DNA of 64,000 bases from an uncultured Acidobacteriota bacterium. Its GTDB lineage: Bacteria > Acidobacteriota > Vicinamibacteria > Vicinamibacterales > CAVVIG01. Of this stretch, positions 37,511 to 63,227 are shown piece after piece (within the stretch, counting starts at the first letter, position 1; every line of letters begins with the position of its first letter). The translations under genes and the position numbers were made by a program. The notes below the pieces were generated by a model, which did no database searches, was not told the origin of the DNA, and saw nothing but the letters and a program-made list of their open reading frames with translations. The DNA lies in contig CAWIYH010000002.1 of assembly GCA_963840225.1 (NCBI GenBank), positions 135,934 through 199,933 on the forward strand, written 5' to 3'.

Positions 37511-37516
37511 GGCCGC

Positions 37517-43876: not shown

Positions 43877-45070
43877 ATGAAGCCACCAACCGCCCGCGGC
43901 CGCATCGACACGGTGCTCGAGCCGGACTTCCTCACCTTCGGCGAGCCCCACATCCTCGAGGACGAAATCGACGAGGTCGTGGCCTGCCTGCGCTCGGGCT
44001 GGTGCGGCACCGGTCCGCGCGTCGCCCGGTTCGAGCGCGACTTCGCCGACTTCAAGGGCGGCGCGCACGTCGCCGCCGTCGCCTCGTGCTCCGCCGCCCT
44101 GCATCTGAGCCTGCTCGTGGCCGGCATCGAGCCGGGCGACGAGGTCATCACGTCGCCGTTGACCTTCTGCGGCGCGATCAACGCGATCATCCACGCCGGC
44201 GGACGCCCGGTCCTGGCCGACGTCGACCCGATCACGATGAACGTCGACCCGCGCGAGGTGGAAGCCCGCGTCACGCCGCGGACGCGCGCCATCCTGCCCG
44301 TGCACTTTGCCGGGCGCCCGTGCGATCTCGATGCCCTCGGCCGCATCGCGCGCCGGCACGGGCTCCGGCTCATCGAGGACTGCGCGCACGCGGTCGAAGC
44401 GCGCTACCGCGGCGCACCCGTCGGCACCCTCGGCGATTTCGGGTGCTTCAGCTTCTATGCGACCAAGAACGTGACCTCCGGCGAGGGCGGCATGGTGATC
44501 GCGCGCGACGAGCGCGACATCGCCCGGATCAGGACGCTCGCGCTGCACGGCCTGTCGAAGGACGCATGGAGCCGCGTCCGGGCGCGGCACGACACGCGCT
44601 ACCGGTGTGTGGAGATCGGCTTCAAGTACAACATGATCGACCTGCAGGCCGCGATCGGCATCCACCAGCTCCGCCGGGTCGAAGCGAGCTGGGAACGACG
44701 CCAGTCGATCTGGCAGCGATACCTGGGAGCGCTTCGGGATGTCCCCGTCGGCCTCCCCGCCGCGTCCGACCCCGACTGCCGGCACGCCCATCACCTGTTC
44801 ACGATCGCGATCGACGAGCGCAGGACCGGCGTGACGCGCGACCGGTTCCTCGACGCCATGACCGCGCTCGGCATCGGCGTCGGCGTGCACTACCCGAGCG
44901 TGCCCGAGCACCCGGCGTATCGAGAGCGTTTCGGATGGCGCCCCGAGGAGTGGCCGGTCGCCATGCGCATCGGCAGGGAGACCGCCAGCCTGCCGATCGG
45001 TCCGGCGCTCGACGATCGCGACGTCGACCGCGTCGTCGGCGCGGTCGACACCGCCCTGCGCGCGTCCTGA
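43877..45070 (+). CDS. DegT/DnrJ/EryC1/StrS-family PLP sugar aminotransferase
   Basis: ITSPLTFCGAINAI, ILPVHFAGRPCD, FSFYATKNVTSGEGG (PLP lysine). Confidence 0.92.
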   Translation: MKPPTARGRIDTVLEPDFLTFGEPHILEDEIDEVVACLRSGWCGTGPRVARFERDFADFKGGAHVAAVASCSAALHLSLLVAGIEPGDEVITSPLTFCGAINAIIHAGGRPVLADVDPITMNVDPREVEARVTPRTRAILPVHFAGRPCDLDALGRIARRHGLRLIEDCAHAVEARYRGAPVGTLGDFGCFSFYATKNVTSGEGGMVIARDERDIARIRTLALHGLSKDAWSRVRARHDTRYRCVEIGFKYNMIDLQAAIGIHQLRRVEASWERRQSIWQRYLGALRDVPVGLPAASDPDCRHAHHLFTIAIDERRTGVTRDRFLDAMTALGIGVGVHYPSVPEHPAYRERFGWRPEEWPVAMRIGRETASLPIGPALDDRDVDRVVGAVDTALRAS

Positions 45071-46038
45071 GCGGGCGCCGGCGGAGCGGCGAGGTGGTAG
45101 AGGTTCTGCAGCGACCATCGGTCCAGCCGATCCTCGACCCCGAAGACCGGCTTCACGCATCTCAGCTCGAAGAAATCGACCGGAAAGACGTAGTCGTCCC
45201 AGTTCTCGATCCGGGCGATCCCCGTCAACTCCTGGAACCGATTCGAGATCGCCAGGTCCTCGAAGCCGTCGAGCGGAAGGTCGACCGTCTTCAGGAGCGA
45301 AAGGACGAATCCCTTCCGGCGGACCACGTCGAGCACCGCGTTCAGGTCGCCGATCTCGTAGCAGTAGGCGCTGTTGATTCGGCGGATCTCGCGATCGATT
45401 GCGCCGCGATGCTCGGGCCGCGGGGGAACGCGCGCGAACAGGTCCTTGATGTACAGGCAGCCTCCGGGCCTGAGGACGTCCCAGCAGGCGTCGACGAGCC
45501 GGCTCTTGTCGCGCGAGTGTCCGAACGACTCCAGGAAGTAGACGACGTCGTAGGCGCCGCTGGCGAAGTAGTCCGTCAGGCGGTGATAGTCGCCGCAGAC
45601 GACCCGCAGGCGCTCGTGCAGCCCCTCCACGTCGACTCTGCGCCGCGCCGCCTGGTACTGCGCATTCGAGATCGTGATGCCGTCCACCCTCACCTTCGCG
45701 CACCTGACGAAGTGCGCGGCCGGCGCCGCGGTGCCGCAACCGGCGTCCAGCGCCCGTTGTCCCGGCTCGAAGCCGATGCTTCGGATCTCGTAGTTCAGCA
45801 GGTCGACGACGTTCCGGGTCCGGAGCGCCTGGATGACCTCGCCGTACACCTCCATGAACTGGTCGTGGTGGCGATCGTAGAAGCGGCCGACGCTGGCGGC
45901 GTGGCGGTCGTCATACGGCGCGGCGGGGGCGGGCGTCGCCTCGCGGCGCGAGACATTCCTCTTCTTCCACGCCGCGAGCCGCAGCGCGATTTCCGCCTTG
46001 ATGTGCCCCGGCGTGTAGGTGTCCAGGAATCGTCGCAT
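44890..46038 (-). CDS. class I SAM-dependent methyltransferase (CMAS/sterol-MT-like)
   Basis: ALDAGCGTAAPAAHF, VVYFLESFGHS, LRPGGCLYIKD. The 3' tail overlaps the DegT gene by 181 nt. Confidence 0.82.
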   Translation of the reverse strand: MRRFLDTYTPGHIKAEIALRLAAWKKRNVSRREATPAPAAPYDDRHAASVGRFYDRHHDQFMEVYGEVIQALRTRNVVDLLNYEIRSIGFEPGQRALDAGCGTAAPAAHFVRCAKVRVDGITISNAQYQAARRRVDVEGLHERLRVVCGDYHRLTDYFASGAYDVVYFLESFGHSRDKSRLVDACWDVLRPGGCLYIKDLFARVPPRPEHRGAIDREIRRINSAYCYEIGDLNAVLDVVRRKGFVLSLLKTVDLPLDGFEDLAISNRFQELTGIARIENWDDYVFPVDFFELRCVKPVFGVEDRLDRWSLQNLYHLAAPPAPAQDARRAVSTAPTTRSTSRSSSAGPIGRLAVSLPMRMATGHSSGRHPKRSRYAGCSGTLG

Positions 46039-46042
46039 GCGG

Positions 46043-47929
46043 CTACGGCCTCGTCAGACGGTATCGGATCTCCCGCACGATGTTGGCCGGCGTGTACACC
46101 TTCCACAGCGGACGGCCGTCGGCCGGACGAGGCTTGGGCCGGCCCGCCGCCGGTGTCGTCCCCGCGGCTCCCTCGATCGCGAGCGCGGCCACCCGGCTCC
46201 CGAGCGCGGCGTCTTCCCGATTGCCCGCGGCCCTGATGCGCGCCACGAGGTCCGACGTGTCGTACTGCCGGGATCGGACCGCGAACAGCCCGATGCAGTC
46301 GAGCCCGCGCGGTTTGTCCCCTCTCTGGTACAGCGCCGACAGCCGGGCGTTGTTGTAGTGGACGAAGAACTCGGGGGTCACCTCATATCCCTCGATCGCC
46401 GGCCGCGGCTGCCCGGGCAGCAGGTAGTAGTGCCTGAGGCGCGCGTCGCGATGCGTGACGCCGATGCCGAACGCGATCCTGATGCGGTCGGTGCCGTTCG
46501 GCGGCGACGCGTGCAGCGTCCGGTTGTTGAAGACGACGGCCTGACCGGCGCGCAGGTCCACCAGCTGCATGTACGGAAAGATGTCGCGCAGCTGGTCCTT
46601 GAACGGGGGCGCGTACTGCGGAGAGGGTGACGGCCGGACGTGATCGTACAGGAGGTGGCTTCCCTTGAGCAGGGCCAGCGCGCCGTTCTCCACGTTCACG
46701 TCGACGAGCGGACACCACATGGTCGCCGACCAGAATCGCGATTCGTCGACGAAGGTCCAGTCCTGGTGCGGCGGCACGACGCCCAGCGGGTTCGGGCTCT
46801 TCGTCACGAAGCTCGCGGTGAAGATCTGATGATCCGTCAGATGGCGCTCGACGCTCGGGCCCACCTCGTCGACCAGCCTCTCCGAGACGGCGCGCACGAA
46901 CCGGGAGCTCTCGTTGTCCAGGCTCACCTGAAAGCCGTTCTGCGGGACGGCGGCATTCGAGAGGCCGTCATGGAACGCCCGCAGACGATCGACCGTCCCC
47001 TGGTCGATCAGATCCAGGACGACGAAGCCGCTGGCTTCGAACTGGTGCTGAAGCGCCGAATCTCTGAACAGCTGCATCGTCGGGCACCCGCCGCCGCGCT
47101 CGCCGTCGTGCTGGCGGATCCGGGCCTCCAGTGACTGGTCGGTGACCGCAACATGGCTGTAGGGGCGTCGATTCAGCCGGCGGGTCCCCTGCGGCACCAG
47201 CCCCCTGGCCAGCCGGTCGATGTGCGTGAGGTAGAACTCCGGGCTGGCCTCGTAGACGTCGACCTCCGTGTCGCTGTGCTTGTGGAAGTATACGAGGGGC
47301 GTCTCTGGTTCCGTGATCCGGGCCGTCACCACGACGCGATCCCGCGGGCCGCTGTTCGCGTGGCTTCCGTGAAACAGCGCGTCCGAATAGACGATCGCCT
47401 CGCCCGCCCTCAGCGGCACGTCGATCACGTGGTCGTGGAGCTCCACCGGCAGCAGATACCGGTTCGAGGGATAGCTTCCCGACCGGAGAATCGACGCAAA
47501 CCAGCGATGACTGCCCGGGAGCACGAAGAGGGCACCGCTGGTGACCGAGACGTCCTCCAGCGGACACCACAGGAACATCGTCTGGCGGCGCTCTTCGTCC
47601 ACGACGCTCCAGTCCTGATGGAGCGGCAGGACGGAGGAATCCACGTGCGACTTGACCATGAAGGTGCCGCCATAGATCGTCGCCGGCAGGAAGCGACCCG
47701 CCGCGGCCTTCTCGACCTCCTGCCGGATGGCGTCGTTGATCGCACGGTTCACGTCATACGGATTGTGGCGGCTGCTCTCGTAGAGGCCGGAGACCGCGCT
47801 TCTGTCGACGTGCCGCACGTACAGCGCCATGAGCGCGTCGACCTGCGGGCAAGACAGGAGGGGCACGACGAGGTACCCGTCCCGATCGAAGCGTTCTTGC
47901 GCCGAAGGATCGCGCAGGAGGGGCTTCAT
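46043..47929 (-). CDS. tandem di-domain PhyH-type Fe(II)/2-oxoglutarate dioxygenase
   Basis: Two complete PhyH units: LPLHQDWSVVDE...LFHGSHAN and VPPHQDWTFVDE...TLHASPPN. Confidence 0.85.
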   Translation of the reverse strand: MKPLLRDPSAQERFDRDGYLVVPLLSCPQVDALMALYVRHVDRSAVSGLYESSRHNPYDVNRAINDAIRQEVEKAAAGRFLPATIYGGTFMVKSHVDSSVLPLHQDWSVVDEERRQTMFLWCPLEDVSVTSGALFVLPGSHRWFASILRSGSYPSNRYLLPVELHDHVIDVPLRAGEAIVYSDALFHGSHANSGPRDRVVVTARITEPETPLVYFHKHSDTEVDVYEASPEFYLTHIDRLARGLVPQGTRRLNRRPYSHVAVTDQSLEARIRQHDGERGGGCPTMQLFRDSALQHQFEASGFVVLDLIDQGTVDRLRAFHDGLSNAAVPQNGFQVSLDNESSRFVRAVSERLVDEVGPSVERHLTDHQIFTASFVTKSPNPLGVVPPHQDWTFVDESRFWSATMWCPLVDVNVENGALALLKGSHLLYDHVRPSPSPQYAPPFKDQLRDIFPYMQLVDLRAGQAVVFNNRTLHASPPNGTDRIRIAFGIGVTHRDARLRHYYLLPGQPRPAIEGYEVTPEFFVHYNNARLSALYQRGDKPRGLDCIGLFAVRSRQYDTSDLVARIRAAGNREDAALGSRVAALAIEGAAGTTPAAGRPKPRPADGRPLWKVYTPANIVREIRYRLTRP

Positions 47930-47932
47930 CGC

Positions 47933-49789
47933 TCAGCGCCTGAAGAGGGCATTCCACGCGCGGCTCAGTGCCGCGCCTGCCACCGCGGGGTCCCTGCGTC
48001 GAAGCCGGCCGGCCGGCGGCATCAGGCGCCGCCCGTTCTTCTTCAGGCCCGATCGCTCGCAGAGCCGACGGATTTCGTCGGCGGAGAACGGGATGAACTC
48101 GTCCTCGAAGACCGCCTCGACAGTGCAGTCTTCGGGCATCTGCGCAGCGTCGAAAGTCGTCTTGAGCGAGGCGACGGTGTTCCGCTCGAAGAACGACGGG
48201 TCGACCTTGAGCTTGGCGATCGTGCGGCGGGCGTCCTGCACGCCCGCGGGCACGAGGAAGTAATGACAGAGGTCGGCGTCACGCGGCGTCATGCCGATGG
48301 CCACCGCCAGCCTCGGCGCGGTCGTCAGGTTGGGCGGGGCGCCGTGGATGGTGCGGTTGTCGAAGACCACCGCCTGCCCGGCCTCGAGCGGCACGAACGC
48401 CAGGTACTGGTACAGAACCGCCTCGTGGCCCTGCGCGCACGTCCGGAAGTCGGGCGACGGCGAGCCGATCGGTTTGTCGAAGAACTCGTGGCTGCCGCGC
48501 ACGAAGCCGAGGCAGCCGTTGGCCTCGTCCACATCGACGAGCGCGACCCACACGGTCATCGAGCGGTACCCGGGAGCGTCGACGAACGTCCAGTCCTGGT
48601 GCGGGGAGGTGTAGCTGTCGGCTCCCGGCGCCTTGACCAGGAAGCTGCCCAGGTGCGGCTTGCAGTCCGCGAAGTGCTCGCCGAGCCTCGGCATCAGGAC
48701 GCCCGACAGGCGCTCGATGAGCGCGCGCTTGCGCGCGAGGTCCTTCTCCTCCAAACCGATGTACATACCGTAGGCGCTGTTCTCGACCACGCCGCCGGTG
48801 GACTCGACGAACAGCTCCGTCAGGCGGCGCACCTCGTCGCGCCCGAGAAGGGAGAGCGTGACGAAGCCGTTCTCCTCCATCGAGCGCTGGACGGCTGGGT
48901 CGAGAAAGACCCGCCGCGATTCGCGTTGCCGGCGGGCCGATGCGTGCTGCACGGCGAGCCCGGCGAGCGCCCGGGTCACTTCGTCCTTTGTCGGAAACGG
49001 GATGAGGTCCTGCTCGTGATCCACTGCGCGGCGGTCGAGCCGAGCGTCCCAGAGATTGTTCTCGAGCACGAAGGCCTTGTCGATGCGGTGGGCCTTCACC
49101 CGTCCCGTGCCCTGATCGAAGACGCAGTGGATCGCGGGCGCCTCGCGCGGCTTGAGGACCGACTGTACCGCCACGCGCACCTCGCCGGTGCGGTTGGGCG
49201 GCGAATAGTGAATCAGCTTGTGGTCGAAGATCGCGGCCTGACCCCTCCTGAGCGGAATCCGCCGCGCGTACCGCTTGAGCATGTCGTTGTATTCGGTGAG
49301 CGCCTTGGGCAGGTTCGGACCACGCTGCGTCCTGAAGACCTCGTGGCTGCCGGCGATCGCGCAGAGCCCGCCGTTGGTCATGTCCGTGTCGACCAGGGGG
49401 CACCACAGATTGAAGGCCGTATGGCGGTTTTCGTCGACGAAGTTGAAGTCCTGGTGGGCCTCGATCTGGCCGTCGCCAGGAAACTTGATCATGAAGTTGG
49501 AGTAGAAGACCTCGTAATCGGCCAGCAGGTCGTCGACGCGAGGCGCGACGCAACCGGAAATCAGCGCGTCGACCTCGTGTTTGTGCGCCGTGTCCCGGTC
49601 GAAAACGGAGATGTAGTACGGCAGGTCCCGGGCATAGCCGACCACCTCCCGTTTCGTGCGGAACGCCCCCGCGTAGAACGACCACAGCCCGGCGATCTCG
49701 TCGTCGCGCAGCAGATCGACGACGATGTAGCCATTCTCCCTGAACTGCCGCTCGTGGCCGTCGTCCCTGAAGATCCGGCGCATAGCCAT
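47933..49789 (-). CDS. tandem di-domain PhyH-type Fe(II)/2-oxoglutarate dioxygenase (paralog of 46043-47929)
   Basis: IEAHQDFNFVDE...LIHYSPPN and SPHQDWTFVDA...TIHGAPPN. Start set at ATG 49789 (MAMRRIFRDDGHERQFRENGYIVV). Confidence 0.85.
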   Translation of the reverse strand: MAMRRIFRDDGHERQFRENGYIVVDLLRDDEIAGLWSFYAGAFRTKREVVGYARDLPYYISVFDRDTAHKHEVDALISGCVAPRVDDLLADYEVFYSNFMIKFPGDGQIEAHQDFNFVDENRHTAFNLWCPLVDTDMTNGGLCAIAGSHEVFRTQRGPNLPKALTEYNDMLKRYARRIPLRRGQAAIFDHKLIHYSPPNRTGEVRVAVQSVLKPREAPAIHCVFDQGTGRVKAHRIDKAFVLENNLWDARLDRRAVDHEQDLIPFPTKDEVTRALAGLAVQHASARRQRESRRVFLDPAVQRSMEENGFVTLSLLGRDEVRRLTELFVESTGGVVENSAYGMYIGLEEKDLARKRALIERLSGVLMPRLGEHFADCKPHLGSFLVKAPGADSYTSPHQDWTFVDAPGYRSMTVWVALVDVDEANGCLGFVRGSHEFFDKPIGSPSPDFRTCAQGHEAVLYQYLAFVPLEAGQAVVFDNRTIHGAPPNLTTAPRLAVAIGMTPRDADLCHYFLVPAGVQDARRTIAKLKVDPSFFERNTVASLKTTFDAAQMPEDCTVEAVFEDEFIPFSADEIRRLCERSGLKKNGRRLMPPAGRLRRRDPAVAGAALSRAWNALFRR

Positions 49790-49968
49790 GTCTGTCGCGG
49801 GAGGCACGTGTGGACGCGGACGGCGAAAGGACGCCGTGGACGGGCCAAAGTCTGCTACGCTCTCGCGCAAAAGGCAACTGATTGCGGACGGCGCCGGATC
49901 GCGCCCGGCGCCGCGCGACGCCAGCCCTCGCAGCTCGGCAGTGGCCGGCGGCGGCCAGTCCCAAGCCC

Positions 49969-52185
49969 ATGCTCGATCACTGGTGGAAGCCGAAGGGAAC
50001 GAACCTGTTCGTCGTGCTCTACGCGGTCGTCCTCGTCACGGGACTGCCATTCCCGCGCGCGCTTGCTCTCGTCCTCCCGTCGGTCCTGACCATCGCGGGC
50101 ATCGGCACCTTCGGGCACCTCGTCAACGACTGGTTCGACCGCGCCGCCGATGCGGCCGTCGGCAAGGCCAACCGGCTGGCCACGCGTCCATCATGGCAGC
50201 GACGGATGCTCTTGGCCGCCGCCGGGGCACTCGCGCTCCTCCCGTGGATCGCGCTGCCATCGGACGCGAGCTCGGCGGCGCTCCTGCTCCTCGAGCTGGC
50301 GCTTCTCATTGCGTACGCGGTCCCGCCCATCCGCCTGAAAGGACGCCGGATCGCGCCGATTTCCGCCGACGCGGCCTACGCGTACGTCGTCCCCGCGATC
50401 CTGGCCGCGCACACCTTCTTCCTGGCGGCCGCACAGCCGACCGAGCCCGTGTTCGTCGCCGCGCTGACGGTGTGGCAGGCCGGTCTCGGCGTGCGCCATT
50501 TCCTGAACCACCTCGCGCTGGATCGCCGGAACGACCTCGCGACGCGGACCTCGACGCTCGCAACCCGCAAGGGCAACGCGTTTCTACACCGCGTGATTCG
50601 GCGGGTCGTCCTGCCCGTCGAGCTCGCCGGCCTCGTCGGGCTGCTGCTGGCACTCGGCAGGGCGCACTGGCTCCTGCCGGCGACCGTCGGGCTGTTGTTT
50701 CTGGCTTCGTTCGTCATTCACCTGGGCGTCACCGTGGGCCGCCGGTTTCCGCTCACGGCCTACCGGTTCAGCAGGACGGCCCTCGATCGCTTCTATCAGG
50801 AGCTTCTGCCGGTCGTGTTCCTGTCGTTCCTGATCGCGATTGACGCCCGCTTCTCCGCGCTGCTCGCCGCGCATCTGCTGCTGTTCGAGACCAGAATCCC
50901 CTATGCGCTCGCGCGCGTCGCGCTGGCCGGCCCCGCCGTGCTCACGCTGCACGCGGCGCGCGCGTCGGGGGCCCGCCCGGCCGCGGCGCCGGTCGCGTTC
51001 GTGCGCTCGTCATGCGCTGCAGGCTCGACGGTCGCCCCCGTGGCAATCGCGATCGCGAACATCAACAAGCACAAGTACACCGAGACGTTCGTGCACGGCC
51101 CGATTCCGAAGCTTCACTACGCGGTCTACTTCCTGCACGGCGGGGAGCTCCCGCGGTTCGACGACGACGACCGCCACTTCCTGTCGAACTGGCCCTCCGT
51201 CCAGGCGCTCGCCCGGCTGCTGGAGTCGCTCTTCCGCCTGGAGCCGGACTACTTCCTGAAGAACAGCATCGCCAGCTACCTCCAGGCGAAGCGCGTCCGG
51301 CTCGTCCTGGCGCACTTCGGACCCGTCGGCGCCCGAATCGCGCCGATCGCACGTGACCTCGGGATTCCGCTGATCGTGTGGTTCCACGGGTACGACGTCT
51401 TCCATCGCGAGACCCTGCGCGAGTACGCGGCGGAGTACGGGGCGCTCTTCCTCGAGGCCGATCGCATCATCGCGGTCTCGGAGCTGATGATGGCGCGCCT
51501 GGGCGAGCTGGGTGCGCCGGAGGACAAGCTCGTGCACCTTCCGGCGTTCGTCGATCTCGACCGGTTCCAGCTTCAGGATCGCCGCGCCATCGGCCCGCGA
51601 TTCCTGGCGGTCGGGCGGTTCGCCGAATCGAAGGGGCCTCACCTCACGCTCCTCGCCTTCGAGCGCGTCGTGCGCGTGGTACCCGAGGCGCGGCTGACGA
51701 TGGTGGGGAAGGGCGGAGGCGGAGAGCTGTTCGAGGCGTGCGTGATCCTCACCCGCGCGCTCGGACTGGAAGGGCAGGTCGAATTCAAAGGCGTCCTGGG
51801 GCACGACGAGGTGGCCGAAGAGATGCGCCGGGCGAGGGTGTTCGTCCAGCACTCCGTGACGACGCCCGAACACGGCGACATGGAGGGCAAGCCGGTCGCC
51901 GTGATGGAGGCGATGGCGGCCGGCCTGCCCGTCGTCTCCACCAGGCACTCCGGCATCGCCGAGCTCATCGAGGACGGCGTGACCGGGCTCCTGGTCGAAG
52001 AGCTCGACGTCGAAGCGATGGCGGAGGCGATGATCCGCCTGGCGACAGATGACGAGGCCGTGGCGCGGATCGGCCGGAGCGCGAGCGCGCGGATTCACGA
52101 CGACCCGTTGATCGGCCGTCACATCGCGGTACTGGAAGACATCATCAGCACGAGCCTGGCGCGCAGCGGAGGCGGGCCTCCGTAG
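49969..52185 (+). CDS. fusion protein: UbiA-superfamily prenyl/phosphoribosyl-transferase-like membrane domain + GT4 glycosyltransferase
   Basis: N-half: multiple TM helices with HLVNDWFDRAADAAVGKANRL (NDxxDxxxD). C-half: RFAESKGPHL, MEGKPVAVMEAMAAGLPVVSTRHSGIAELIEDGVTGLLV (GT4 EX7E). Confidence 0.8.
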   Translation: MLDHWWKPKGTNLFVVLYAVVLVTGLPFPRALALVLPSVLTIAGIGTFGHLVNDWFDRAADAAVGKANRLATRPSWQRRMLLAAAGALALLPWIALPSDASSAALLLLELALLIAYAVPPIRLKGRRIAPISADAAYAYVVPAILAAHTFFLAAAQPTEPVFVAALTVWQAGLGVRHFLNHLALDRRNDLATRTSTLATRKGNAFLHRVIRRVVLPVELAGLVGLLLALGRAHWLLPATVGLLFLASFVIHLGVTVGRRFPLTAYRFSRTALDRFYQELLPVVFLSFLIAIDARFSALLAAHLLLFETRIPYALARVALAGPAVLTLHAARASGARPAAAPVAFVRSSCAAGSTVAPVAIAIANINKHKYTETFVHGPIPKLHYAVYFLHGGELPRFDDDDRHFLSNWPSVQALARLLESLFRLEPDYFLKNSIASYLQAKRVRLVLAHFGPVGARIAPIARDLGIPLIVWFHGYDVFHRETLREYAAEYGALFLEADRIIAVSELMMARLGELGAPEDKLVHLPAFVDLDRFQLQDRRAIGPRFLAVGRFAESKGPHLTLLAFERVVRVVPEARLTMVGKGGGGELFEACVILTRALGLEGQVEFKGVLGHDEVAEEMRRARVFVQHSVTTPEHGDMEGKPVAVMEAMAAGLPVVSTRHSGIAELIEDGVTGLLVEELDVEAMAEAMIRLATDDEAVARIGRSASARIHDDPLIGRHIAVLEDIISTSLARSGGGPP

Positions 52186-53113: not shown

Positions 53114-53160
53114 GAGCTTACTTGCGTCGTGCGGGCGCGTCCTGTAGATTACGCGCGCCG

Positions 53161-54003
53161 ATGAGAGCGGTCGTACGCACCTGCGATCCCGTGCTCGCCC
53201 GGCCGCGTGAGTTTGTCCGGAACCTGTGGGACGACTTCCGCCGATCGCGTCCCCTCGCCGCCGAGATGGCCAGGCGCGACATCCGCAGCCAGTATCGCGC
53301 GTCGATGCTCGGCGCGGCGATTGTGGTGCTGACGCCGCTGGCGATGACCGCCGTCGCCGTCGGGTTCCGCCGCACCGGCATCCTCGCCGTCGACTCGGCC
53401 GCGGTTCCGTACGGCCTGTTCGTCCTCGTCGGCGTCGTGCTCTGGACGACCTTCCTGGACGCGATGAACGCGCCCATCTTCGGCCTGCTCGCGGAAGCGC
53501 GGCTCCTGGCGCGGACCAGCGCCGCGCCCGAAGCGATTGTCCTCGGCAAGCTCGGCCCGGTGTTCTTCAACGCGCTGGTCCGGACCGCGCTCGTGGCCGC
53601 CGCGCTCGTGTGGTACGGAGCGACCCTGCCCGCCACCGTCGTCCTGGCGCCGGTGGGCGCGCTGGCCCTGATCGCGCTCGGGACGGCCATCGGCCTCGCC
53701 CTCGCGCCCGTGAACCTCGTGTACCGGGATACGTCGAAGATTCTCGCCACCTTCACGACCGTCTGGTTCTTCTTCTCGCCGGTGTACTTTCCCGCGCCCG
53801 CCGAAGGGCCTCTCGGCGCCCTGATGAGGCTCAATCCCGTGACGCCGCTGCTGTCCGACACGCGGGCGCTGATTCTGACCGGAATCGTCGCCGAGCCGGG
53901 CCCGAGCCTCGTGGTGGCGCTGGCGACGGCGGTCGCCCTGGCGGTCTGCTGGATCTACGTGCGCATCGCCCTTCGTGTCGCCGTCGAGCAGGTCAACGAG
54001 TAA
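53161..54003 (+). CDS. ABC-2 type polysaccharide export permease (Wzm-like)
   Basis: LAAEMARRDIRSQYRASMLGAAIVVLTPL followed by six TM helices. Confidence 0.85.
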   Translation: MRAVVRTCDPVLARPREFVRNLWDDFRRSRPLAAEMARRDIRSQYRASMLGAAIVVLTPLAMTAVAVGFRRTGILAVDSAAVPYGLFVLVGVVLWTTFLDAMNAPIFGLLAEARLLARTSAAPEAIVLGKLGPVFFNALVRTALVAAALVWYGATLPATVVLAPVGALALIALGTAIGLALAPVNLVYRDTSKILATFTTVWFFFSPVYFPAPAEGPLGALMRLNPVTPLLSDTRALILTGIVAEPGPSLVVALATAVALAVCWIYVRIALRVAVEQVNE

Positions 54004-54010
54004 CCGACGT

Positions 54011-55345
54011 GTGAATCCCGATCTGGTCGTCTCCGTGCGCGGAGCGTCGCGCAAGTTCTGCCGCGATCTGAACCGGTCGCTGCGGTATGCGGTCGCCGAC
54101 GCGATCGACGATCTGCTCGTGCGCCGCCGGAGCAGGGCGGCGCTCAGGCCCGACGAGTTCTGGGCGCTTCGCAACGTGTCATTCGAGCTCCGACGCGGCG
54201 AGAGCCTCGGCGTGATGGGGTTGAACGGCGCGGGCAAGTCGACCCTTCTCAAGCTGGTGCTCGGGTCGCTCCGGCTGACGGAAGGCGAAGCCGTCACCTG
54301 CGGCCGCGTTGCCGTGCTCAGCGAGCACGGCCTGGGCTTCGACCCGCTCCTCTCGGGCCGCGAGAACGCGTACATGACCGCGGCCGTGCTCGGCATCGAC
54401 CGCCGGCGTGTGGACGAGGCGTTCGACGACATCGTCGCGTTCGCGGGACTCGATGAGTTCATCGACTCGCCGGTCCGCGTCTACAGCACCGGCATGCGCG
54501 CGCGGCTCGGCTTTTCCGTCGCCATGCACCTCGAGCCGGATCTCCTGCTCGTGGACGAGGTGCTGGCCGTGGGCGACATCGGATTCCAGCGGCGGTGCAT
54601 CGAGCACGCGCAGCGGTTCCTTCGGGACGGGGGGTCGCTGGTGCTCGTCTCCCACGACCCGCATCTCGTGCAGTTCATCTGCGGGCGGTGCCTCGTGCTG
54701 GACCGCGGCAGAGTGGCGTTCGACGGCGACGTCGTCGGAGGCGTGGCGCGCTACCTGGAAGCCGCGCGGGCGGCGCCGTCCGGCGCCCTCCTGCTCAACG
54801 GATCGCTCGCGCCGCCCGCGGCCGTTCCGGTCGTGCCCGACAGCGGCGTGGCGGTAGACGATTTCGGCGTCGAGCCGGTGACCGGCAGCGAGGTGCGAAG
54901 CGAGGGGCCGGCTCGCGTGTTCGTGCGCTATCGCTCGCGCACGGACCTGCACGTGCGCTGGGGCTTCTCCCTGCTCACCGCCGATCTCGGCACGACGATC
55001 GCCAGCGACGGTCCGGTGCAGCCGTTCTCGATTCCGGCCGGCGCGGGCGAGCTGGCCGCTCTGGTACCGCGGCTGCCGCTCGCCGGCGGACGCTACGCGC
55101 TTCGCGTCGCGATCATGGATCCTCACACCGAGCTGCCTTTCGCGCTCGGCGGCTTCCACGAGCCGCCGCGCTACTTCACGGTCGCGATGCCGCCGAGCCG
55201 CCGCAACAACTACCGGATGTTCACCAACGATCTGGTGGCGCTCGAAGCGGTCGACTGGCAGTGCCGGCCGCTTCACCACCCGGCCAGCGCGACGAGGTCT
55301 TCCGGCCCGAGCGGGTCGACCGGACGGTCGACCGACGTGAGATAA
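54011..55345 (+). CDS. polysaccharide ABC exporter ATPase (Wzt-like) with C-terminal extension
   Basis: Walker A GLNGAGKST, signature YSTGMRARL, Walker B LLLVDEVLAVGD. The ~190-aa beta-rich C-terminal domain is as in glycan-end-binding Wzt proteins. Confidence 0.88.
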   Translation: MNPDLVVSVRGASRKFCRDLNRSLRYAVADAIDDLLVRRRSRAALRPDEFWALRNVSFELRRGESLGVMGLNGAGKSTLLKLVLGSLRLTEGEAVTCGRVAVLSEHGLGFDPLLSGRENAYMTAAVLGIDRRRVDEAFDDIVAFAGLDEFIDSPVRVYSTGMRARLGFSVAMHLEPDLLLVDEVLAVGDIGFQRRCIEHAQRFLRDGGSLVLVSHDPHLVQFICGRCLVLDRGRVAFDGDVVGGVARYLEAARAAPSGALLLNGSLAPPAAVPVVPDSGVAVDDFGVEPVTGSEVRSEGPARVFVRYRSRTDLHVRWGFSLLTADLGTTIASDGPVQPFSIPAGAGELAALVPRLPLAGGRYALRVAIMDPHTELPFALGGFHEPPRYFTVAMPPSRRNNYRMFTNDLVALEAVDWQCRPLHHPASATRSSGPSGSTGRSTDVR

Positions 55346-56106
55346 GTCACGCCCGCAGGATACGGCTTCCGGATGGGCGCGCCGCGCTCCATCTGGACCA
55401 GAAACTCCCTGGTCACCTCCAGGACGTCGAACCTCGTCGGCCGCGCGCCGTTCCACACGTAGACGAGCGGCCGGACGCCTGTGGGCAGCAGGATCGCGAC
55501 AAGCGCCGGGCGTTGGACGGTCGACCGGTTCTCTCCCGAGCCGTGAAAGAGGCGGGACTCGTACGCGAGCAGCGACCCGGCCGCCATCGGAACCGCCGTC
55601 GTGAAGTCCTTCCTCAGCACGTCCATCACGCGGCCGAACACCGGCGGGTACTCGTTCACCGCGTAGGGACTGTCGACCAGGGTGTAGCTGCCCTTCACCA
55701 CCTGGAGGCATCCGTTGGTCTCGTCCACATCGATCAACGGACACCAGAGATGGACGGCGGTGTGTCGGGCGGCGTCGGCGAAGGAATAGTCGCGGTGGAG
55801 GGGAAGGGCGCCCTGCGTGGTGTTGGGCCGCTTGGTCACGAACACGGCGAAGCACAACTCGTGGCGCGGGAAGAGGGCCGACAGGGGCGCGCTCAGGATC
55901 GAGGCGATGCCGTCGGAGACGCGGCGCCGATGGTCGGCGTCGCGGCTGAAGACCGTCGCATAGAAATCGGCCGGCGGACTGCCGGCCAGCGTCGCGTGCA
56001 GCTCGACGAGCCGGCCGACCTCCTGCTCGCCCAGAAAGGGCAGGACGACGTAGCCGTCCCGGCGGAACGTGTCCTGGGTGGTGCGGTCGTCAAACACCTG
56101 GTGCAT
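55273..56106 (-). CDS. PhyH-type Fe(II)/2-oxoglutarate dioxygenase (single domain)
   Basis: FRRDGYVVLPF, LPLHRDYSFAD, WCPLIDVDETNGCLQVVKGS, LFHGSGEN. Confidence 0.85.
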   Translation of the reverse strand: MHQVFDDRTTQDTFRRDGYVVLPFLGEQEVGRLVELHATLAGSPPADFYATVFSRDADHRRRVSDGIASILSAPLSALFPRHELCFAVFVTKRPNTTQGALPLHRDYSFADAARHTAVHLWCPLIDVDETNGCLQVVKGSYTLVDSPYAVNEYPPVFGRVMDVLRKDFTTAVPMAAGSLLAYESRLFHGSGENRSTVQRPALVAILLPTGVRPLVYVWNGARPTRFDVLEVTREFLVQMERGAPIRKPYPAGVTYLTSVDRPVDPLGPEDLVALAGW

Positions 56107-58171: not shown

Positions 58172-58334
58172 GTCAATCCCCTCGAACACGAGACGACGAT
58201 CTCGATGCGGCGATGGGCGGGACGGGGTCGGCGCAGTCTACCACCGCCCAGTCGATCCCGCATGTCGTCCTTGACAAGACCGCCCAACGGTGCCAAAAGA
58301 TCATCCCCACGCCGGAACGCTCAGGTGTCGCCAC

Positions 58335-61192: not shown

Positions 61193-61220
61193 GCTGTGAC
61201 CTCGCCGCAGGCGCGACCTG

Positions 61221-62108: not shown

Positions 62109-62225
62109 GCCCGGGCGCGTCTCGAATTCCGCGGCTGCCGGTTGGGCCCTGTGCTATGCTCCGCGCTTCACGGCTGCGGAAGTGACGACGGACGGACGTC
62201 GGGCGCGGCCCGACCGAGGCAGCTC

Positions 62226-63227
62226 ATGTCGCACGGCATCCCGACCGCTCCGGCGATTGCGGCCGCCTCCCGATCGGCGTCGCCACGGGCCGGCTCTGTC
62301 GATCGCACGCGCGACGCCTTGAGAGCGCGGCTGGCCGACGCGCCTGCAGGCGACATCCTCTGCGAATACTTCGAACGGGGCAAGATGCTGCGCGCGCAGC
62401 TGGTCTTCGCCTCGTCGGCGGCGGTCGGCGGCGACCCGGACGAGGTCGCGGTGGGCGCCGAGGCGATCGAGCTTCTGCACGCCGCTTCGCTGTTCCACGA
62501 CGACATCGTCGACGGCGCCGCGGAGCGTCGCGGCCTCGCGTCGCTGCACGAGCGGCTCGGCGTGGGGCGCGCGCTCGTCGTCGGCGACGACCTGCTCCTC
62601 CGCGCGTTCGCCGCGCTCGGCGACGCCCGCGCGTGCCATCCCCCGACGCGGGTGCTGGAAGCCACCGACGCGCTCAATCAGCTCGCCCGCGCGTGCTGTC
62701 GCGGTCAGTTCGCCGAGCTGTGCGCCGACCGGTGGATCTCCGAGGAACAATACCTGGCGATCGTGCGCGGCAAGACGGCGGCGCCGTTCATCGCGGCCGG
62801 TCTGCTCGGGGTGGTGCTCGGCGGCGGCACCTCCGCGCATGCGGGCCGCATCAGGGTCTACGCCGAGGAGATCGGCGTCGCGTTCCAGATCGGCGACGAC
62901 CTGCTCGACCTGATCGGCGAGCCGGGAATGCTCGGCAAGCCCGTCGGCAATTCGGTGGCGCAGGGACGGCCCATGCTGCCGCTCATCTACCTGCGGCAGG
63001 TCGACCCCGACCTTGCCGCCGGCTGGCAGGGGCGCGTCGATCGAGGCCGCCCTCAAGCAGGCGCCGCGCTGCTCGACGAACGAGGCGTGCTCACGCGGGT
63101 GCGGAACGCGCAGCGCGCGCACGTCGACGCGGCGCTTGCCGCAATCAGCCAGTTCCCGGTGCCTGCCGGCGTCCACGAGCTGCGCGCGCTCGCGGCTCGC
63201 GCCACCTCGCCGGTCGGCGTCACCTAG
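62226..63227 (+). CDS. trans-polyprenyl diphosphate synthase
   Basis: FARM LLHAASLFHDDIVD and SARM FQIGDDLLD, with GKTAAPF between them. Confidence 0.9.
   Translation: MSHGIPTAPAIAAASRSASPRAGSVDRTRDALRARLADAPAGDILCEYFERGKMLRAQLVFASSAAVGGDPDEVAVGAEAIELLHAASLFHDDIVDGAAERRGLASLHERLGVGRALVVGDDLLLRAFAALGDARACHPPTRVLEATDALNQLARACCRGQFAELCADRWISEEQYLAIVRGKTAAPFIAAGLLGVVLGGGTSAHAGRIRVYAEEIGVAFQIGDDLLDLIGEPGMLGKPVGNSVAQGRPMLPLIYLRQVDPDLAAGWQGRVDRGRPQAGAALLDERGVLTRVRNAQRAHVDAALAAISQFPVPAGVHELRALAARATSPVGVT

What the first reader, a model, noticed from the sequence alone, without database searches (positions are those of the whole stretch)
46043..49789. Two adjacent genes each encode a fused pair of complete PhyH dioxygenase domains
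Both proteins (628 and 618 aa) contain two full Fe(II)/2OG units with intact HxD...H triads. The motifs are HQDWSVVDE/FHGSHAN and HQDWTFVDE/LHASPPN in one protein, and HQDFNFVDE/IHYSPPN and HQDWTFVDA/IHGAPPN in the other. The second domains of the two proteins resemble each other more than they resemble their own first domains. This implies that a di-domain ancestor was duplicated. A fifth, single-domain PhyH lies at 55273-56106. PhyH enzymes are normally single-domain, and I know of no characterised tandem fusion. The genes are separated by 3 nt and followed (4-nt gap) by a SAM-MT.
Basis: partly seen in the sequence, partly recalled or inferred. Interest (0 to 1): 0.6.

Follow-up and report, generated by a model that had tools for sequence, protein, structure and literature searches.

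The report
Fused double iron-oxygenase enzymes, glycolipid locus
Two neighbouring genes each encode two complete iron/2-oxoglutarate oxygenase units joined in one protein; they belong to a large, unstudied family found as arrays of up to 14 such units beside a methyltransferase and a cell-surface polysaccharide exporter in several bacterial phyla.

Summary
The ORFs 46043-47929(-) (628 aa) and 47933-49789(-) (618 aa) each carry two full PhyH (PF05721) units. A fifth single unit lies at 55273-56106(-). All five keep the HxD...H iron triad and the 2OG-binding Arg.

These residues are invariant in both halves across 96 homologues. AlphaFold2 gives one confident two-lobed fold (pLDDT 92, pTM 0.86). 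Neither half is a pseudo-domain.

The fusion is not rare, but it is uncharacterised.
- 79 related loci in Acidobacteriota, Bacteroidota and Marinimicrobia MAGs hold 434 PhyH units, a mean of 5.6 and up to 14 per locus. A Xanthomonadales locus holds seven more.
- The units fall into about 10 clades, most present once per locus.
- Neighbouring paralogues were fused in at least six combinations.

Conserved partners are a CMAS-like methyltransferase (fused to the double PhyH in one homologue), a UbiA-like protein with GT4, a polyprenyl synthase, and a Wzm/Wzt exporter whose Wzt has a cap-reading domain. PhyH proteins, the methyltransferase and a B12-radical SAM enzyme share a terminal helix motif, FWxxYTPxNIxREIxxRL.

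Best reading: membrane-proximal oxygenases that tailor a polyprenyl-linked glycoconjugate before export. The substrate is unknown.

The parts
47933..49789 (-). Gene B: double PhyH oxygenase, 618 aa from the ATG at 49789 (an upstream TTG at 49870 would give 645 aa). N unit about 48914-49789 (clade 1), C unit about 48065-48913 (clade 0), short basic tail.
   Evidence: Translation. Pfam gives two PhyH stretches, E 1e-41. Homologue alignments start at the MAMRR/MRR position. Clade assignment. H/D/H/N/R are kept in both units.
46043..47929 (-). Gene A: double PhyH oxygenase, 628 aa. N unit about 47084-47929 (clade 7; H104, D106, H187, R198). C unit about 46250-47083 (clade 0; H388, D390, H473, R484). 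Tail 46046-46249.
   Evidence: Translation and Pfam. The listed residues are invariant in 96 homologues. AF2 gives pLDDT 92.4 and pTM 0.86. Foldseek matches SnoN, SnoK, MysH, EvdO2 and others, each covering one half only.
46055..46096 (-). C-terminal tag helix of gene A, YTPANIVREIRYRL, preceded by PLWKV. It is tethered to the body by a disordered linker (aa 590-603).
   Evidence: The motif ends 3 aa before the stop. W609, Y612, N616, E620 and R624 are at least 90% conserved. AF2 predicts a helix at 614-626 after a low-pLDDT linker. The consensus comes from 79 tails.
44890..46038 (-). SAM-dependent methyltransferase (CMAS/Methyltransf_11 type). It has the same motif at its N-terminus (YTPGHIKAEIALRL, 45976-46017). 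Its last ~60 aa are probably antisense read-through over the DegT gene.
   Evidence: Pfam. The strict motif occurs only twice in the 6-Mb genome, here and at the end of gene A. Homologue P0031 is a double PhyH plus methyltransferase fusion of 949 aa. A homologous methyltransferase lies near the PhyH genes in 27 of 36 fully flanked loci.
55273..56106 (-). Stand-alone PhyH oxygenase (277 aa), in clade 1 together with the N unit of gene B. It follows the B12-radical SAM gene.
   Evidence: Pfam E 1.9e-21. Tree placement. Catalytic columns are kept.
49882..52185 (+). Divergently transcribed fusion of a UbiA-like membrane domain and a GT4 glycosyltransferase.
   Evidence: Pfam finds UbiA plus Glycos_transf_1 and Glyco_transf_4. 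NCBIfam gives only a generic prenyltransferase match, not a DPPR synthase. The UbiA part lies near the PhyH genes in 19 of 36 fully flanked loci.
53122..54003 (+). Wzm-type ABC-2 permease.
   Evidence: Pfam ABC2_membrane. NCBIfam galactan Wzm/RfbD and KpsM. The homologue cluster is present in 36 loci.
53975..55345 (+). Wzt-type ABC ATPase with a C-terminal beta-sandwich domain. This places it in the cap-reading class of exporters.
   Evidence: NCBIfam Wzt/RfbE and TagH, E 1e-43. The AF2 model (pLDDT 77.5) aligns over about 400 columns with full-length A. aeolicus Wzt including its CBD, E 2e-32. Pfam itself does not recognise the C-terminal domain.
56114..58189 (-). B12-binding radical SAM enzyme, nearest to KedN5-type C-methyltransferases. 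It is part of the conserved cassette.
   Evidence: Pfam and NCBIfam NF033712, E 4e-52. The gene is syntenic in L001 and L005. The L083 homologue ends with the tag motif.
43877..45070 (+). ArnB-like DegT aminotransferase. It belongs to an Ara4N-like side pathway that also includes ACP, KASIII, an ArnC-like GT2 and a GNAT at 58275-61192, a TPR GT-C at 35615-37516, and Ugd and UXS-like genes at and beyond the right end of the window.
   Evidence: Pfam. NCBIfam ArnB E 7e-105, ArnC E 2e-35, PseH-like GNAT. tblastn places Ugd at 63275-64327 and a UXS-like gene just past the window end.
62298..63191 (+). trans-Polyprenyl diphosphate synthase homologue. It recurs next to the UbiA/GT4 genes in related loci.
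   Evidence: tblastn gives 64% identity to the L001 gene. PF00348 is annotated in L082 and L084.

Best explanation
Genes A and B each encode a covalently fused hetero-pair of two different, catalytically competent PhyH-type Fe(II)/2-oxoglutarate oxygenases. In effect each is a frozen heterodimer of neighbouring paralogues.

They are soluble cytoplasmic enzymes. They belong to a multi-paralogue PhyH array that forms the tailoring module of a conserved envelope-glycoconjugate cassette. The other parts of the cassette are:
- a dedicated polyprenyl synthase;
- a UbiA-like membrane enzyme fused or adjacent to a GT4;
- a CMAS-like SAM methyltransferase;
- a B12-radical SAM methylase;
- a cap-dependent Wzm/Wzt exporter.

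Proposed mechanism:
1. Each PhyH unit oxidises (most likely hydroxylates) a different C-H position of the polyprenyl-linked intermediate at the inner face of the membrane. My preferred target is its sugar residues.
2. The physically coupled methyltransferase O-methylates at least one of the new hydroxyls.
3. The finished, terminally modified chain is recognised by the Wzt C-terminal domain and exported.
4. A short conserved terminal helix (FWxxYTPxNIxREIxxRL) is carried by PhyH proteins, the methyltransferase and, in a relative, the radical SAM enzyme. It holds the tailoring enzymes together or docks them to a common partner.

Shown here: the architecture, the intact active sites in both halves, the conservation, the gene neighbourhood, the methyltransferase fusion, the shared motif and the Wzt fold.

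Inferred: the substrate, the hydroxylation-then-methylation order, the role of the cap and the function of the motif.

The confidence of 0.5 is for the whole statement. The architectural part (real fusions with both halves active) I put at about 0.9. Tailoring of a lipid-linked envelope glycoconjugate I put at about 0.55. Sugar rather than lipid as the target I put at about 0.45.
For: Architecture and competence:
- Two PhyH stretches per protein.
- H, D, H, N and R are invariant in both halves of 96 homologues at 29-68% identity. They are kept in 434 units from 80 loci, apart from a recurrent Asn-for-Asp change in clade 1 and four scattered substitutions elsewhere.
- AF2 gives pLDDT 92.4 and pTM 0.86 for the whole two-lobed chain.
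- There is no hydrophobic segment typical of a membrane span (maximum KD19 1.66).

Frozen heterodimer:
- The units form about 10 supported clades, mostly present once per locus. The same clade pairs occur either fused or as adjacent genes: (4,0) x39, (3,5) x11, (1,0) x10, (7,0) x9, (4,2) x3, (7,11) x3.
- Permuted and three-unit forms exist.
- PhyH-like oxygenases are known to work as homo- or heterodimers, for example AndA and TlxI/J (PDB 7VBQ among the fold hits; PMC12141560).

Glycoconjugate context:
- In Bacteroidota loci the PhyH and methyltransferase genes sit between wzm and wzt.
- A homologous methyltransferase lies within 10 kb in 27 of 36 fully flanked loci, UbiA in 19 of 36 and the ABC ATPase in 13 of 36.
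- The same set recurs in Xanthomonadales.
- The Wzt model matches full-length A. aeolicus Wzt including its CBD. That domain reads a methylated terminal sugar (PMC9445017).

Methyltransferase coupling:
- P0031 is a double PhyH plus methyltransferase fusion.
- The strict motif occurs only at the C-terminus of A and the N-terminus of the methyltransferase in the whole genome.

Sugar as the preferred target:
- The nearest solved relatives by sequence and fold are sugar-tailoring oxygenases: SnoK/SnoN, EvdO2, AviO1, HygX and KanJ.
- PHYHD1 is also a near relative, and it oxidises ribose 2'-O-methyl groups (PMC12709175).
- The best NCBIfam hit for A is the 'sporadic carbohydrate cluster 2OG-Fe(II) oxygenase', matching its N half. 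B matches the same model through its N half, though less well than the halogenase model TIGR01762.
Against: - No substrate is identified, and all similarities to characterised enzymes are remote (about 15-22% identity, E 1e-8 to 1e-11).
- Five to 14 different oxygenases is far more than a terminal cap needs. It is also odd for a glycan built by only one or two glycosyltransferases.
- The methyltransferase is most similar to lipid methyltransferases (the CMAS family).
- trans-Polyprenyl synthase and UbiA are the most constant neighbours after the methyltransferase. Some Chitinophagales loci show only UbiA, methyltransferases and 14 PhyH units within 22 kb. This fits a lipid or prenyl substrate at least as well as a sugar.
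- The N unit of B also hits a carrier-protein-dependent halogenase model.
- The docking role of the motif rests on distribution and conservation alone.
- Almost all related loci come from MAGs, so no chemistry can be linked to the genes.
Confidence: 0.5

Rival explanations
1. The architecture is the same, but the substrate is the lipid part. The PhyH units would hydroxylate defined positions of an isoprenoid chain (made by the adjacent polyprenyl synthase and attached by UbiA) or of an ACP-bound acyl chain. The CMAS-like methyltransferase would then make methoxy groups. The product would be a poly-oxygenated prenyl or acyl glycolipid, exported by the ABC-2 transporter.
For: - The founding family member hydroxylates an isoprenoid acyl thioester (established knowledge).
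- The methyltransferase is nearest to cyclopropane, mycolate and phthiotriol lipid methyltransferases.
- A polyprenyl synthase lies next to UbiA/GT4 in Acidobacteriota and Xanthomonadales loci and in this genome.
- L043 and L039 carry UbiA, two methyltransferases and 14 PhyH units, with no glycan genes within 22 kb.
- Unit numbers of 5-14, with clades mostly present once per locus, suit many fixed positions on one defined molecule.
- A dedicated ACP and KASIII are in the cassette.
- TIGR01762 hits the N unit of B.
- Fungal meroterpenoid pathways combine a UbiA prenyltransferase, a methyltransferase and several PhyH-like oxygenases. AndA, SptF and TlxIJ are among the fold hits.
Against: - The nearest sequence relatives are sugar-acting enzymes.
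- The exporter is of the Wzm/Wzt polysaccharide type with a CBD-like domain.
- The PhyH genes are embedded between wzm and wzt.
- The UbiA domain cannot be assigned to any prenyltransferase subfamily.
Confidence: 0.3
2. Only one half of each fusion is catalytic. The other half is an auxiliary, substrate-positioning subunit, as TlxI is for TlxJ.
For: There is a precedent: TlxI/J and TlxA/C are heterodimers of PhyH-like oxygenases in which one partner is inactive (PMC12141560). 7VBQ is among the fold hits.
Against: TlxI lacks the 2OG-binding Arg. Here both halves keep H, D, H, N and R invariantly across 96 homologues and 434 units. Both halves are about equally conserved.
Confidence: 0.08
3. The oxygenases modify a protein or peptide, for example the co-encoded BNR propellers or small Cys-anchored proteins, before GT-C-mediated glycosylation. 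The conserved tail would be a recognition element of such a system.
For: - BNR propellers, small proteins and a TPR-bearing GT-C lie upstream in the window and in some related loci.
- The B12-radical SAM shows weak similarity to RiPP C-methyltransferases.
- The motif is peptide-like and shared by several enzymes.
Against: - The BNR, small-protein and GT-C genes accompany the PhyH array in only 2-5 of 36 fully flanked loci.
- No precursor-peptide gene is evident.
- The most constant neighbours are the methyltransferase, UbiA and Wzm/Wzt.
- The secreted proteins would have to be hydroxylated in the cytoplasm before export.
Confidence: 0.05
4. The double-domain ORFs are artefacts: two adjacent single-domain genes merged by a sequencing or assembly error that removed a stop codon.
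For: Adjacent single-unit PhyH genes of the same clades do exist in other loci.
Against: - 77 two-unit ORFs occur in independent assemblies from several phyla.
- 96 colinear full-length homologues align.
- The inter-unit linker is conserved, and the AF2 inter-domain arrangement is confident (pTM 0.86).
- Both genes in this window show the same layout.
Confidence: 0.01

Closest known systems
SnoK / SnoN (nogalamycin) and the orthosomycin oxygenases EvdO1/EvdO2, AviO1, HygX
   Same: They share the PhyH-like double-stranded beta-helix fold, the HxD...H triad and the Arg for 2OG. They are the best sequence hits (E 1e-8 to 3e-10) and the best fold hits (E 4e-11 to 1e-9). They oxidise C-H bonds of sugar residues in glycosylated products, and several paralogues work in one pathway.
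   Different: They are single-domain proteins of about 250-300 aa from actinomycete antibiotic clusters. Identity is only 15-22%. They have no Wzm/Wzt, UbiA or methyltransferase-fusion context and no terminal tag motif. Each aligns with only one half of gene A (TMq at most 0.26).
TlxI/TlxJ and TlxA/TlxC heterodimeric alpha-KG oxygenases (fungal talaromyolide pathway; PDB 7VBQ)
   Same: Two paralogous PhyH-like oxygenases form an obligate pair (PMC12141560). 7VBQ is a fold hit. This is the closest precedent for pairing different PhyH paralogues.
   Different: The Tlx pairs are non-covalent. One partner lacks the 2OG Arg and is catalytically dead. Here the pair is one polypeptide and both halves keep all catalytic residues. 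The Tlx substrate is a fungal meroterpenoid.
WbdD of E. coli O9a (kinase plus methyltransferase chain terminator) in the cap-dependent Wzm/Wzt pathway
   Same: It is a two-activity cytoplasmic enzyme. It first installs a functional group on the terminal sugar and then methylates it, producing the cap read by the Wzt CBD. Here an oxygenase-methyltransferase pair (fused in P0031) sits beside a CBD-bearing Wzt.
   Different: There is no homology to the PhyH units, because WbdD uses a kinase, not an oxygenase. Capping by the PhyH/methyltransferase pair is inferred, not shown. Five to 14 oxygenase units exceed what a cap needs.
PHYHD1 / FJS 2'-O-methyl-nucleoside demethylases
   Same: They are PhyH-family enzymes and among the nearest solved relatives (2OPW, E 9e-6 and 1e-7). 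They act on a methylated sugar hydroxyl (PMC12709175). This links the PhyH fold with sugar O-methyl chemistry.
   Different: They are single-domain enzymes that act catabolically on free nucleosides. There is no evidence that the window enzymes demethylate anything.
Phytanoyl-CoA 2-hydroxylase (PAHX) and ectoine hydroxylase EctD (the names given by automatic annotation)
   Same: They belong to the same Pfam family and use the same cofactor-binding residues.
   Different: They are not orthologues. The match to PAHX (2A1X) is only E 3e-4 for B. The EctD model TIGR02408 scores 27 bits against a cut-off of 336.

Membership tests
PhyH family (Pfam PF05721) of Fe(II)/2-oxoglutarate oxygenases | Match to the family HMM above the curated threshold | tested here: met
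   139.1, 143.9 and 77.8 bits against a cut-off of 22. There are two stretches in each of A and B.
PhyH family (Pfam PF05721) of Fe(II)/2-oxoglutarate oxygenases | HxD/E...H facial triad for Fe(II) in every unit | tested here: met
   The triad is H104/D106/H187 and H388/D390/H473 in A. The same columns are kept in B and in the single unit. They are invariant in 96 homologues and kept in 434 units, except Asp to Asn in 47 of 64 clade-1 units and two clade-6 units.
PhyH family (Pfam PF05721) of Fe(II)/2-oxoglutarate oxygenases | Basic residue binding the 2OG C5 carboxylate (Arg 10-11 residues after the distal His) | tested here: met
   R198 and R484 are invariant. 433 of 434 units have Arg. It aligns with the SnoK/SnoN Arg.
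PhyH family (Pfam PF05721) of Fe(II)/2-oxoglutarate oxygenases | Double-stranded beta-helix fold | tested here: met
   The AF2 model has pLDDT 92.4. Foldseek probability is 1.00 to SnoN, SnoK, MysH, AndA, EvdO2, EctD, SyrB2 and KanJ.
PhyH family (Pfam PF05721) of Fe(II)/2-oxoglutarate oxygenases | 2OG-dependent oxidation activity | not testable with these tools
   This requires an enzyme assay.
Ectoine hydroxylase EctD (TIGR02408), the name used by JGI annotation of homologues | Score above the equivalog cut-off | tested here: not met
   27.1 bits against a cut-off of 336.5.
Carrier-protein-dependent Fe/2OG halogenases (SyrB2 type, TIGR01762) | Ala or Gly in place of the carboxylate ligand (HxA/G), and the family cut-off | tested here: not met
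   All five units have HxD. The scores are 47.1 bits for B and 26 bits for A, against a cut-off of 226.
Sporadic carbohydrate cluster 2OG-Fe(II) oxygenase (TIGR04324) | Score above the subfamily cut-off | tested here: not met
   44.1, 36.5 and 17 bits against a cut-off of 150. It is the nearest named subfamily for the N half of A, but the window proteins are not members.
Auxiliary-subunit heterodimeric alpha-KG oxygenases (TlxI/J type) | One partner lacks the 2OG-binding Arg and is catalytically inactive | tested here: not met
   Both halves keep the Arg and the triad. The pairing resembles this type, but the inactive-partner feature is absent.
Cap-dependent Wzm/Wzt (ABC transporter-dependent) glycan export pathway | Wzt ATPase with a C-terminal carbohydrate-binding jelly-roll domain | tested here: met
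   The AF2 model aligns over about 400 columns with full-length A. aeolicus Wzt (7K2T, 8DKU and others), E 2e-32. The model's C-terminal part has pLDDT of about 60-90, and Pfam gives no hit.
Cap-dependent Wzm/Wzt (ABC transporter-dependent) glycan export pathway | A terminal chemical cap made by a dedicated terminator enzyme | not testable with these tools
   A methyltransferase is present and is coupled to the PhyH proteins. The product structure is unknown.

The most novel reading that the evidence does not exclude
The PhyH arrays would form a previously undescribed tailoring metabolon. In it, 5-14 position-specific Fe/2OG oxygenases, a methyltransferase and a B12-radical SAM enzyme are held together, or docked to the exporter, by a shared terminal helix (FWxxYTPxNIxREIxxRL). 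Together they would convert a dedicated polyprenyl-anchored molecule into a heavily hydroxylated and methoxylated envelope glycolipid of a class not yet described chemically. The system is spread by horizontal transfer among Acidobacteriota, Bacteroidota, Xanthomonadales and Marinimicrobia.
Probability: 0.25. Interest if true: 0.8.

Novelty: new variant of a known kind. Interest (0 to 1): 0.62.

Why it matters
Fe(II)/2OG oxygenases of the PhyH type are workhorses of natural-product and lipid chemistry. Those that have been characterised are single-domain proteins.

This locus belongs to a widespread, wholly uncharacterised family. In the 50%-identity representative library, 363 clusters match at E<=1e-30 and 2292 at E<=1e-10. 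In this family:
- different paralogues are repeatedly fused into two- and three-unit enzymes with all active sites intact;
- up to 14 units are packed into one locus;
- unrelated tailoring enzymes share a conserved terminal helix.

If the array modifies a lipid-linked surface glycoconjugate, it points to an unknown, heavily oxidised envelope component in common soil and freshwater bacteria (Acidobacteriota, Chitinophagales, Flavobacteriales). It would also be a new way of coupling oxidation and methylation to Wzm/Wzt export.

For enzymologists it offers natural covalent heterodimers in which to study how paired 2OG oxygenases cooperate.

Tried and rejected
- **PhyH units replacing DprE1/DprE2.** I considered that the units might act as a SnoN-like epimerase making polyprenyl-P-arabinose. 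I dropped this. A Flavobacteriales version carries its own DprE1/E2-like pair beside the PhyH array. This genome has no DprE homologue, and its UbiA domain is not of the DPPR-synthase type.
- **UbiA subfamily.** I could not assign one. There is no PDB hit at E<=1 and only generic prenyltransferase models match.
- **Wzt C-terminal domain by Pfam.** No hit even at E 10. It was resolved by fold instead.
- **Literature.** Searches for tandem or two-domain PhyH proteins, PhyH with UbiA and ABC transporters, 2OG oxygenases with O-antigen and Wzt, and phytanoyl-CoA dioxygenase in Flavobacterium or Acidobacteria polysaccharide loci found nothing describing this family.
- **Context of the cultured Thermomonas carbonis homologue P0112.** It is not on record. 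I used the Xanthomonadales MAG homologue P0115 instead.
- **Pseudo-domain hypothesis.** Rejected on residue conservation.
- **Assembly-artefact hypothesis.** Rejected on recurrence across assemblies.
- **Earlier findings.** A look-up by sequence returned nothing.
- **Statistical rejection of the duplicated di-domain ancestor.** The AU test was inconclusive (p 0.18).

Full report
**1. The observation**

The window is about 70% G+C. Codon-position GC identifies a minus-strand operon:
- gene B, 47933-49870, with the likely ATG at 49789 giving 618 aa;
- gene A, 46043-47929, 628 aa;
- a SAM methyltransferase, 44890-46038.

The 3-nt and 4-nt gaps are also as stated.

Pfam PF05721 (PhyH) hits A and B in two stretches each, at 139 and 144 bits against a cut-off of 22. 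It hits the ORF at 55273-56106 once, at 78 bits. The five units are 27-38% identical to one another, with z-scores of 34-83 against shuffled sequences. They are the only PhyH matches in the 6.0-Mb genome.

**2. Are both halves real enzymes?**

I aligned 13 and then 96 colinear homologues, 29-68% identical to A. Invariant residues in the N half are H104, D106, H187, N192 and R198. The equivalents in the C half are H388, D390, H473, N478 and R484. These are the Fe(II) facial triad and the Arg that binds the 2OG C5 carboxylate. They align with the same residues of SnoK and SnoN.

I then took 434 PhyH units from 79 related loci plus the window. The five columns are conserved almost throughout. The main exception is clade 1, where 47 of 64 units, all from Bacteroidota, have Asn for the Asp. 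Two clade-6 units also lack the Asp, and one clade-0 unit has Ser for the Arg. The window's clade-1 units keep Asp.

AlphaFold2 with the 96-sequence alignment gives pLDDT 92.4 and pTM 0.86 for the whole chain. Foldseek finds SnoN, SnoK, MysH, AndA, EvdO2, AviO1, HygX, TlxIJ, EctD, SyrB2 and KanJ, and each covers only one half (TMq at most 0.26). No PDB entry contains a tandem PhyH.

No membrane-spanning segment is evident.

**3. How common is the fusion, and how did it arise?**

- A word-indexed search found more than 200 homologues, mostly 620-660 aa.
- An exhaustive HMMER search of 1.84 billion cluster representatives found 363 at E<=1e-30 and 2292 at E<=1e-10. Of the 146 newly listed top representatives, 91 are at least 480 aa and 11 are at least 780 aa.
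- Variants include a three-unit protein (P0085), permuted order in Xanthomonadales (P0108, P0112, P0115), the C unit alone (P0087), and a double PhyH fused to the methyltransferase (P0031).
- A scan of one genome per GTDB species returned 79 loci. They come from Acidobacteriota (Bryobacterales, Acidobacteriaceae, Vicinamibacteria), many Bacteroidota (Chitinophagales, Flavobacteriales, Saprospiraceae and Lewinellaceae) and Marinimicrobia, and all are MAGs.
- None of 300 other sampled genomes from the window's own phylum has a match at 1e-30. The distribution is therefore sporadic.

Domain-level analysis of these loci gave the main surprise. The two genes are part of PhyH arrays. A locus holds 5.6 units on average, and up to 13-14 units within about 22 kb (L038, L039, L043).

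A FastTree of all units resolves about 10 well-supported clades, most present once per locus. For example, clade 3 has 49 leaves in 49 loci and clade 5 has 43 leaves in 43 loci. Each paralogue therefore appears to have its own conserved role.

Fusions join neighbouring clades in at least six combinations: (4,0) x39, (3,5) x11, (1,0) x10, (7,0) x9, (4,2) x3 and (7,11) x3. The same pairs also occur as separate adjacent genes.

In the window, A is (7,0), B is (1,0) and the single PhyH is clade 1. An IQ-TREE (LG+C20) of 70 units confirms clade 0 (SH-aLRT 99). It groups clade 1 with clade 0 (97) rather than with clade 7. Forcing the N units (clades 1 and 7) together costs 13.9 lnL units but is not rejected (AU p 0.18).

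The inference of a duplicated di-domain ancestor is not favoured, though it is not excluded. Recurrent fusion of neighbours explains the whole pattern better.

**4. Surroundings**

Pfam and NCBIfam and tblastn define one large locus, running from about 35.6 kb to just beyond the right end of the window. In order it contains:
- a TPR-bearing GT-C;
- two BNR propellers, each with a small protein;
- an ArnB-like DegT aminotransferase;
- the methyltransferase, then A, then B;
- a divergent UbiA-like plus GT4 fusion;
- an unknown secreted protein;
- Wzm and Wzt;
- the single PhyH and a B12-radical SAM enzyme (KedN5-like);
- ACP, KASIII, an ArnC-like GT2 and a PseH-like GNAT;
- a conserved unknown protein;
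- a trans-polyprenyl synthase;
- Ugd, another unknown, and a UXS-like dehydratase.

The Ugd, UXS, DegT, GNAT(+ACP/KASIII), ArnC-like GT2 and GT-C genes read as an Ara4N-like pathway for an N-acylated aminopentose that is delivered in the periplasm.

The PhyH module has different constant partners. Among the 36 related loci with full 10-kb flanks, a homologous methyltransferase is present in 27, the UbiA part in 19 and the ABC ATPase in 13. These counts come from tblastn with the window proteins, so they are underestimates for distant phyla. Homology clustering finds the permease in 36 loci and the ATPase in 34 of the 80.

Specific contexts:
- In Bacteroidota the order is ACP, KASIII, GT2, GNAT, Wzm, PhyH(n), methyltransferase, (B12-rSAM), Wzt.
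- A Xanthomonadales locus has the methyltransferase, polyprenyl synthase, the ABC transporter, a permuted double PhyH, five more PhyH units, GT4, two radical SAM enzymes and a WelO5-like gene.
- Some Chitinophagales loci show only UbiA, two methyltransferases and 14 PhyH units within 22 kb.

The window's Wzt has a 190-aa C-terminal extension that Pfam does not recognise. Its AF2 model nevertheless aligns over about 400 columns with full-length Aquifex aeolicus Wzt, including the carbohydrate-binding domain (E 2e-32). In that system the domain reads a 3-O-methylated terminal sugar that licenses export (PMC9445017).

**5. A shared terminal helix**

Gene A ends with PLWKVYTPANIVREIRYRL, 3 aa before its stop. 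The methyltransferase begins with a related sequence, FLDTYTPGHIKAEIALRL. In the whole genome the strict motif occurs only at these two places, 79 nt apart.

Across the related loci, 79 PhyH ORFs, both single and double, end with the consensus (R)(S/P)FW(K/E/Q)xYTPxNIxREI(K/R)(Y/F)R(L/I). Some proteins carry it twice (P0097, P0101). The B12-radical SAM enzyme in L083 also ends with it. In P0031 the PhyH tail and the methyltransferase head lie in tandem at the fusion joint.

AF2 places it as a helix (614-626) behind a disordered linker. Y612, N616, E620 and R624 are at least 90% conserved and spaced i/i+4, so they line one face of the helix.

Conservation at sequence level across phyla, on three unrelated enzyme families, argues for a specific docking or assembly function rather than a generic amphipathic membrane anchor. 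This is inference only.

**6. Mechanism**

I commit to the following.
- A and B are covalent hetero-pairs of active PhyH oxygenases that work at the cytoplasmic face of the membrane.
- Their substrate is the polyprenyl-linked intermediate made by the polyprenyl synthase, UbiA and GT4 genes.
- Each unit oxidises its own position.
- The docked methyltransferase O-methylates at least one new hydroxyl.
- The finished molecule is recognised by the Wzt CBD and exported.

The sugar moiety is my preferred target. The reasons are the nearest relatives (SnoK/N, EvdO2, AviO1, HygX, KanJ and PHYHD1), the TIGR04324 hit and the position of the genes between wzm and wzt.

The main rival is that the lipid part, a prenyl or ACP-bound acyl chain, is the target. 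It is nearly as good. It is supported by the CMAS-type methyltransferase, the polyprenyl synthase and UbiA linkage, the high number of position-specific paralogues, and the analogy with UbiA + methyltransferase + multi-PhyH fungal meroterpenoid pathways.

The TlxI-like inactive-partner model is disfavoured, because both halves keep the Arg that TlxI lacks. Protein substrates and an assembly artefact are unlikely.

**7. Comparison with the known, and verdict**

The proteins are members of the PhyH family by every testable criterion. They are not orthologues of PAHX, EctD, SyrB2-type halogenases or TIGR04324. I found no paper or structure describing a tandem PhyH or this cassette.

The finding is a new variant of a known kind: natural fused hetero-pairs with both sites intact, within an unstudied multi-oxygenase array. 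The array and the shared tag helix are the more interesting discoveries. The substrate remains open.

The window's phylum was not determined. The nearest homologues are from Acidobacteriota.

Noticed in passing
window 46055-46096 (-) and 45976-46017 (-); also L083:17609-17662 (-) and many PhyH ORF ends in L001-L084: A conserved terminal helix motif, FWxxYTPxNIxREIxxR[LIV], sits 2-8 aa before the stop of 79 PhyH ORFs. It also ends one B12-radical SAM enzyme and starts the methyltransferase in Acidobacteriota- and Lewinellaceae-type loci. In this 6-Mb genome it occurs only twice, on the two adjacent genes. It may be a docking or assembly tag.
   Followed up: partly
L038, L039, L043 (Chitinophagales MAGs), whole loci: Arrays of 13-14 PhyH units lie within about 22 kb, on both strands, next to a stand-alone UbiA-like gene and two CMAS-like methyltransferases. 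This is the largest local expansion of this oxygenase family that I saw.
   Followed up: partly
Clade 1 PhyH units in Bacteroidota loci (e.g. L030, L071): 47 of 64 clade-1 units have Asn in place of the Asp of the HxD iron motif, while keeping both His and the Arg. The window's clade-1 units keep Asp. This could mean altered metal ligation or altered chemistry in that paralogue.
   Followed up: no
window 54785-55345 (+): The Wzt ATPase has a C-terminal beta-sandwich domain that no Pfam model recognises, even at E 10. Its predicted fold aligns with the carbohydrate-binding domain of A. aeolicus Wzt. It is a divergent cap-reading domain.
   Followed up: partly
window 58275-64000 and about 2.5 kb beyond the right end (genome C2:198231-202400): The locus continues past the window with a polyprenyl synthase (62298-63191), Ugd (63275-64327), a conserved unknown and a UXS-like dehydratase. 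Together with DegT, GNAT, ACP/KASIII, the ArnC-like GT2 and the TPR GT-C, this reads as an Ara4N-like pathway with an ACP-derived N-acyl group.
   Followed up: partly
L080:18209-20439 (Flavobacteriales MAG): A DprE1-like (FAD_binding_4/ALO) and DprE2-like (adh_short) pair sits inside the PhyH cassette, together with a WelO5-like oxygenase and an Asp/Arg hydroxylase. This suggests a polyprenyl-P-arabinofuranose branch in that version. This genome has no homologue.
   Followed up: partly
window 61221-62153 (-) and 52145-53113 (-): Two conserved proteins have no Pfam hit. The 310-aa one recurs in 19 related loci next to the GNAT gene. The 322-aa secreted one recurs in three Acidobacteriota loci. 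Both are candidates for missing pathway functions, or for the partner that binds the tag helix.
   Followed up: no
window 44890-45070: The methyltransferase ORF overlaps the convergent DegT gene by 181 nt. The last ~60 residues of the methyltransferase are low-complexity, and homologues end near residue 316. The real C-terminus may therefore lie upstream, or the tail may be read-through.
   Followed up: partly
whole genome / phylum sample: All five PhyH domains of the genome lie in this one locus. None of 300 sampled genomes of the same phylum has a close homologue. The nearest relatives (55-68% identity) are spread over Acidobacteriota and Lewinellaceae. This pattern suggests horizontal transfer of the cassette.
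   Followed up: partly
P0224 (1226 aa, metagenomic representative): A homologue carries three PhyH units followed by a C-terminal region resembling an aspartyl/asparaginyl beta-hydroxylase-type 2OG oxygenase. It is an even larger multi-oxygenase fusion.
   Followed up: no
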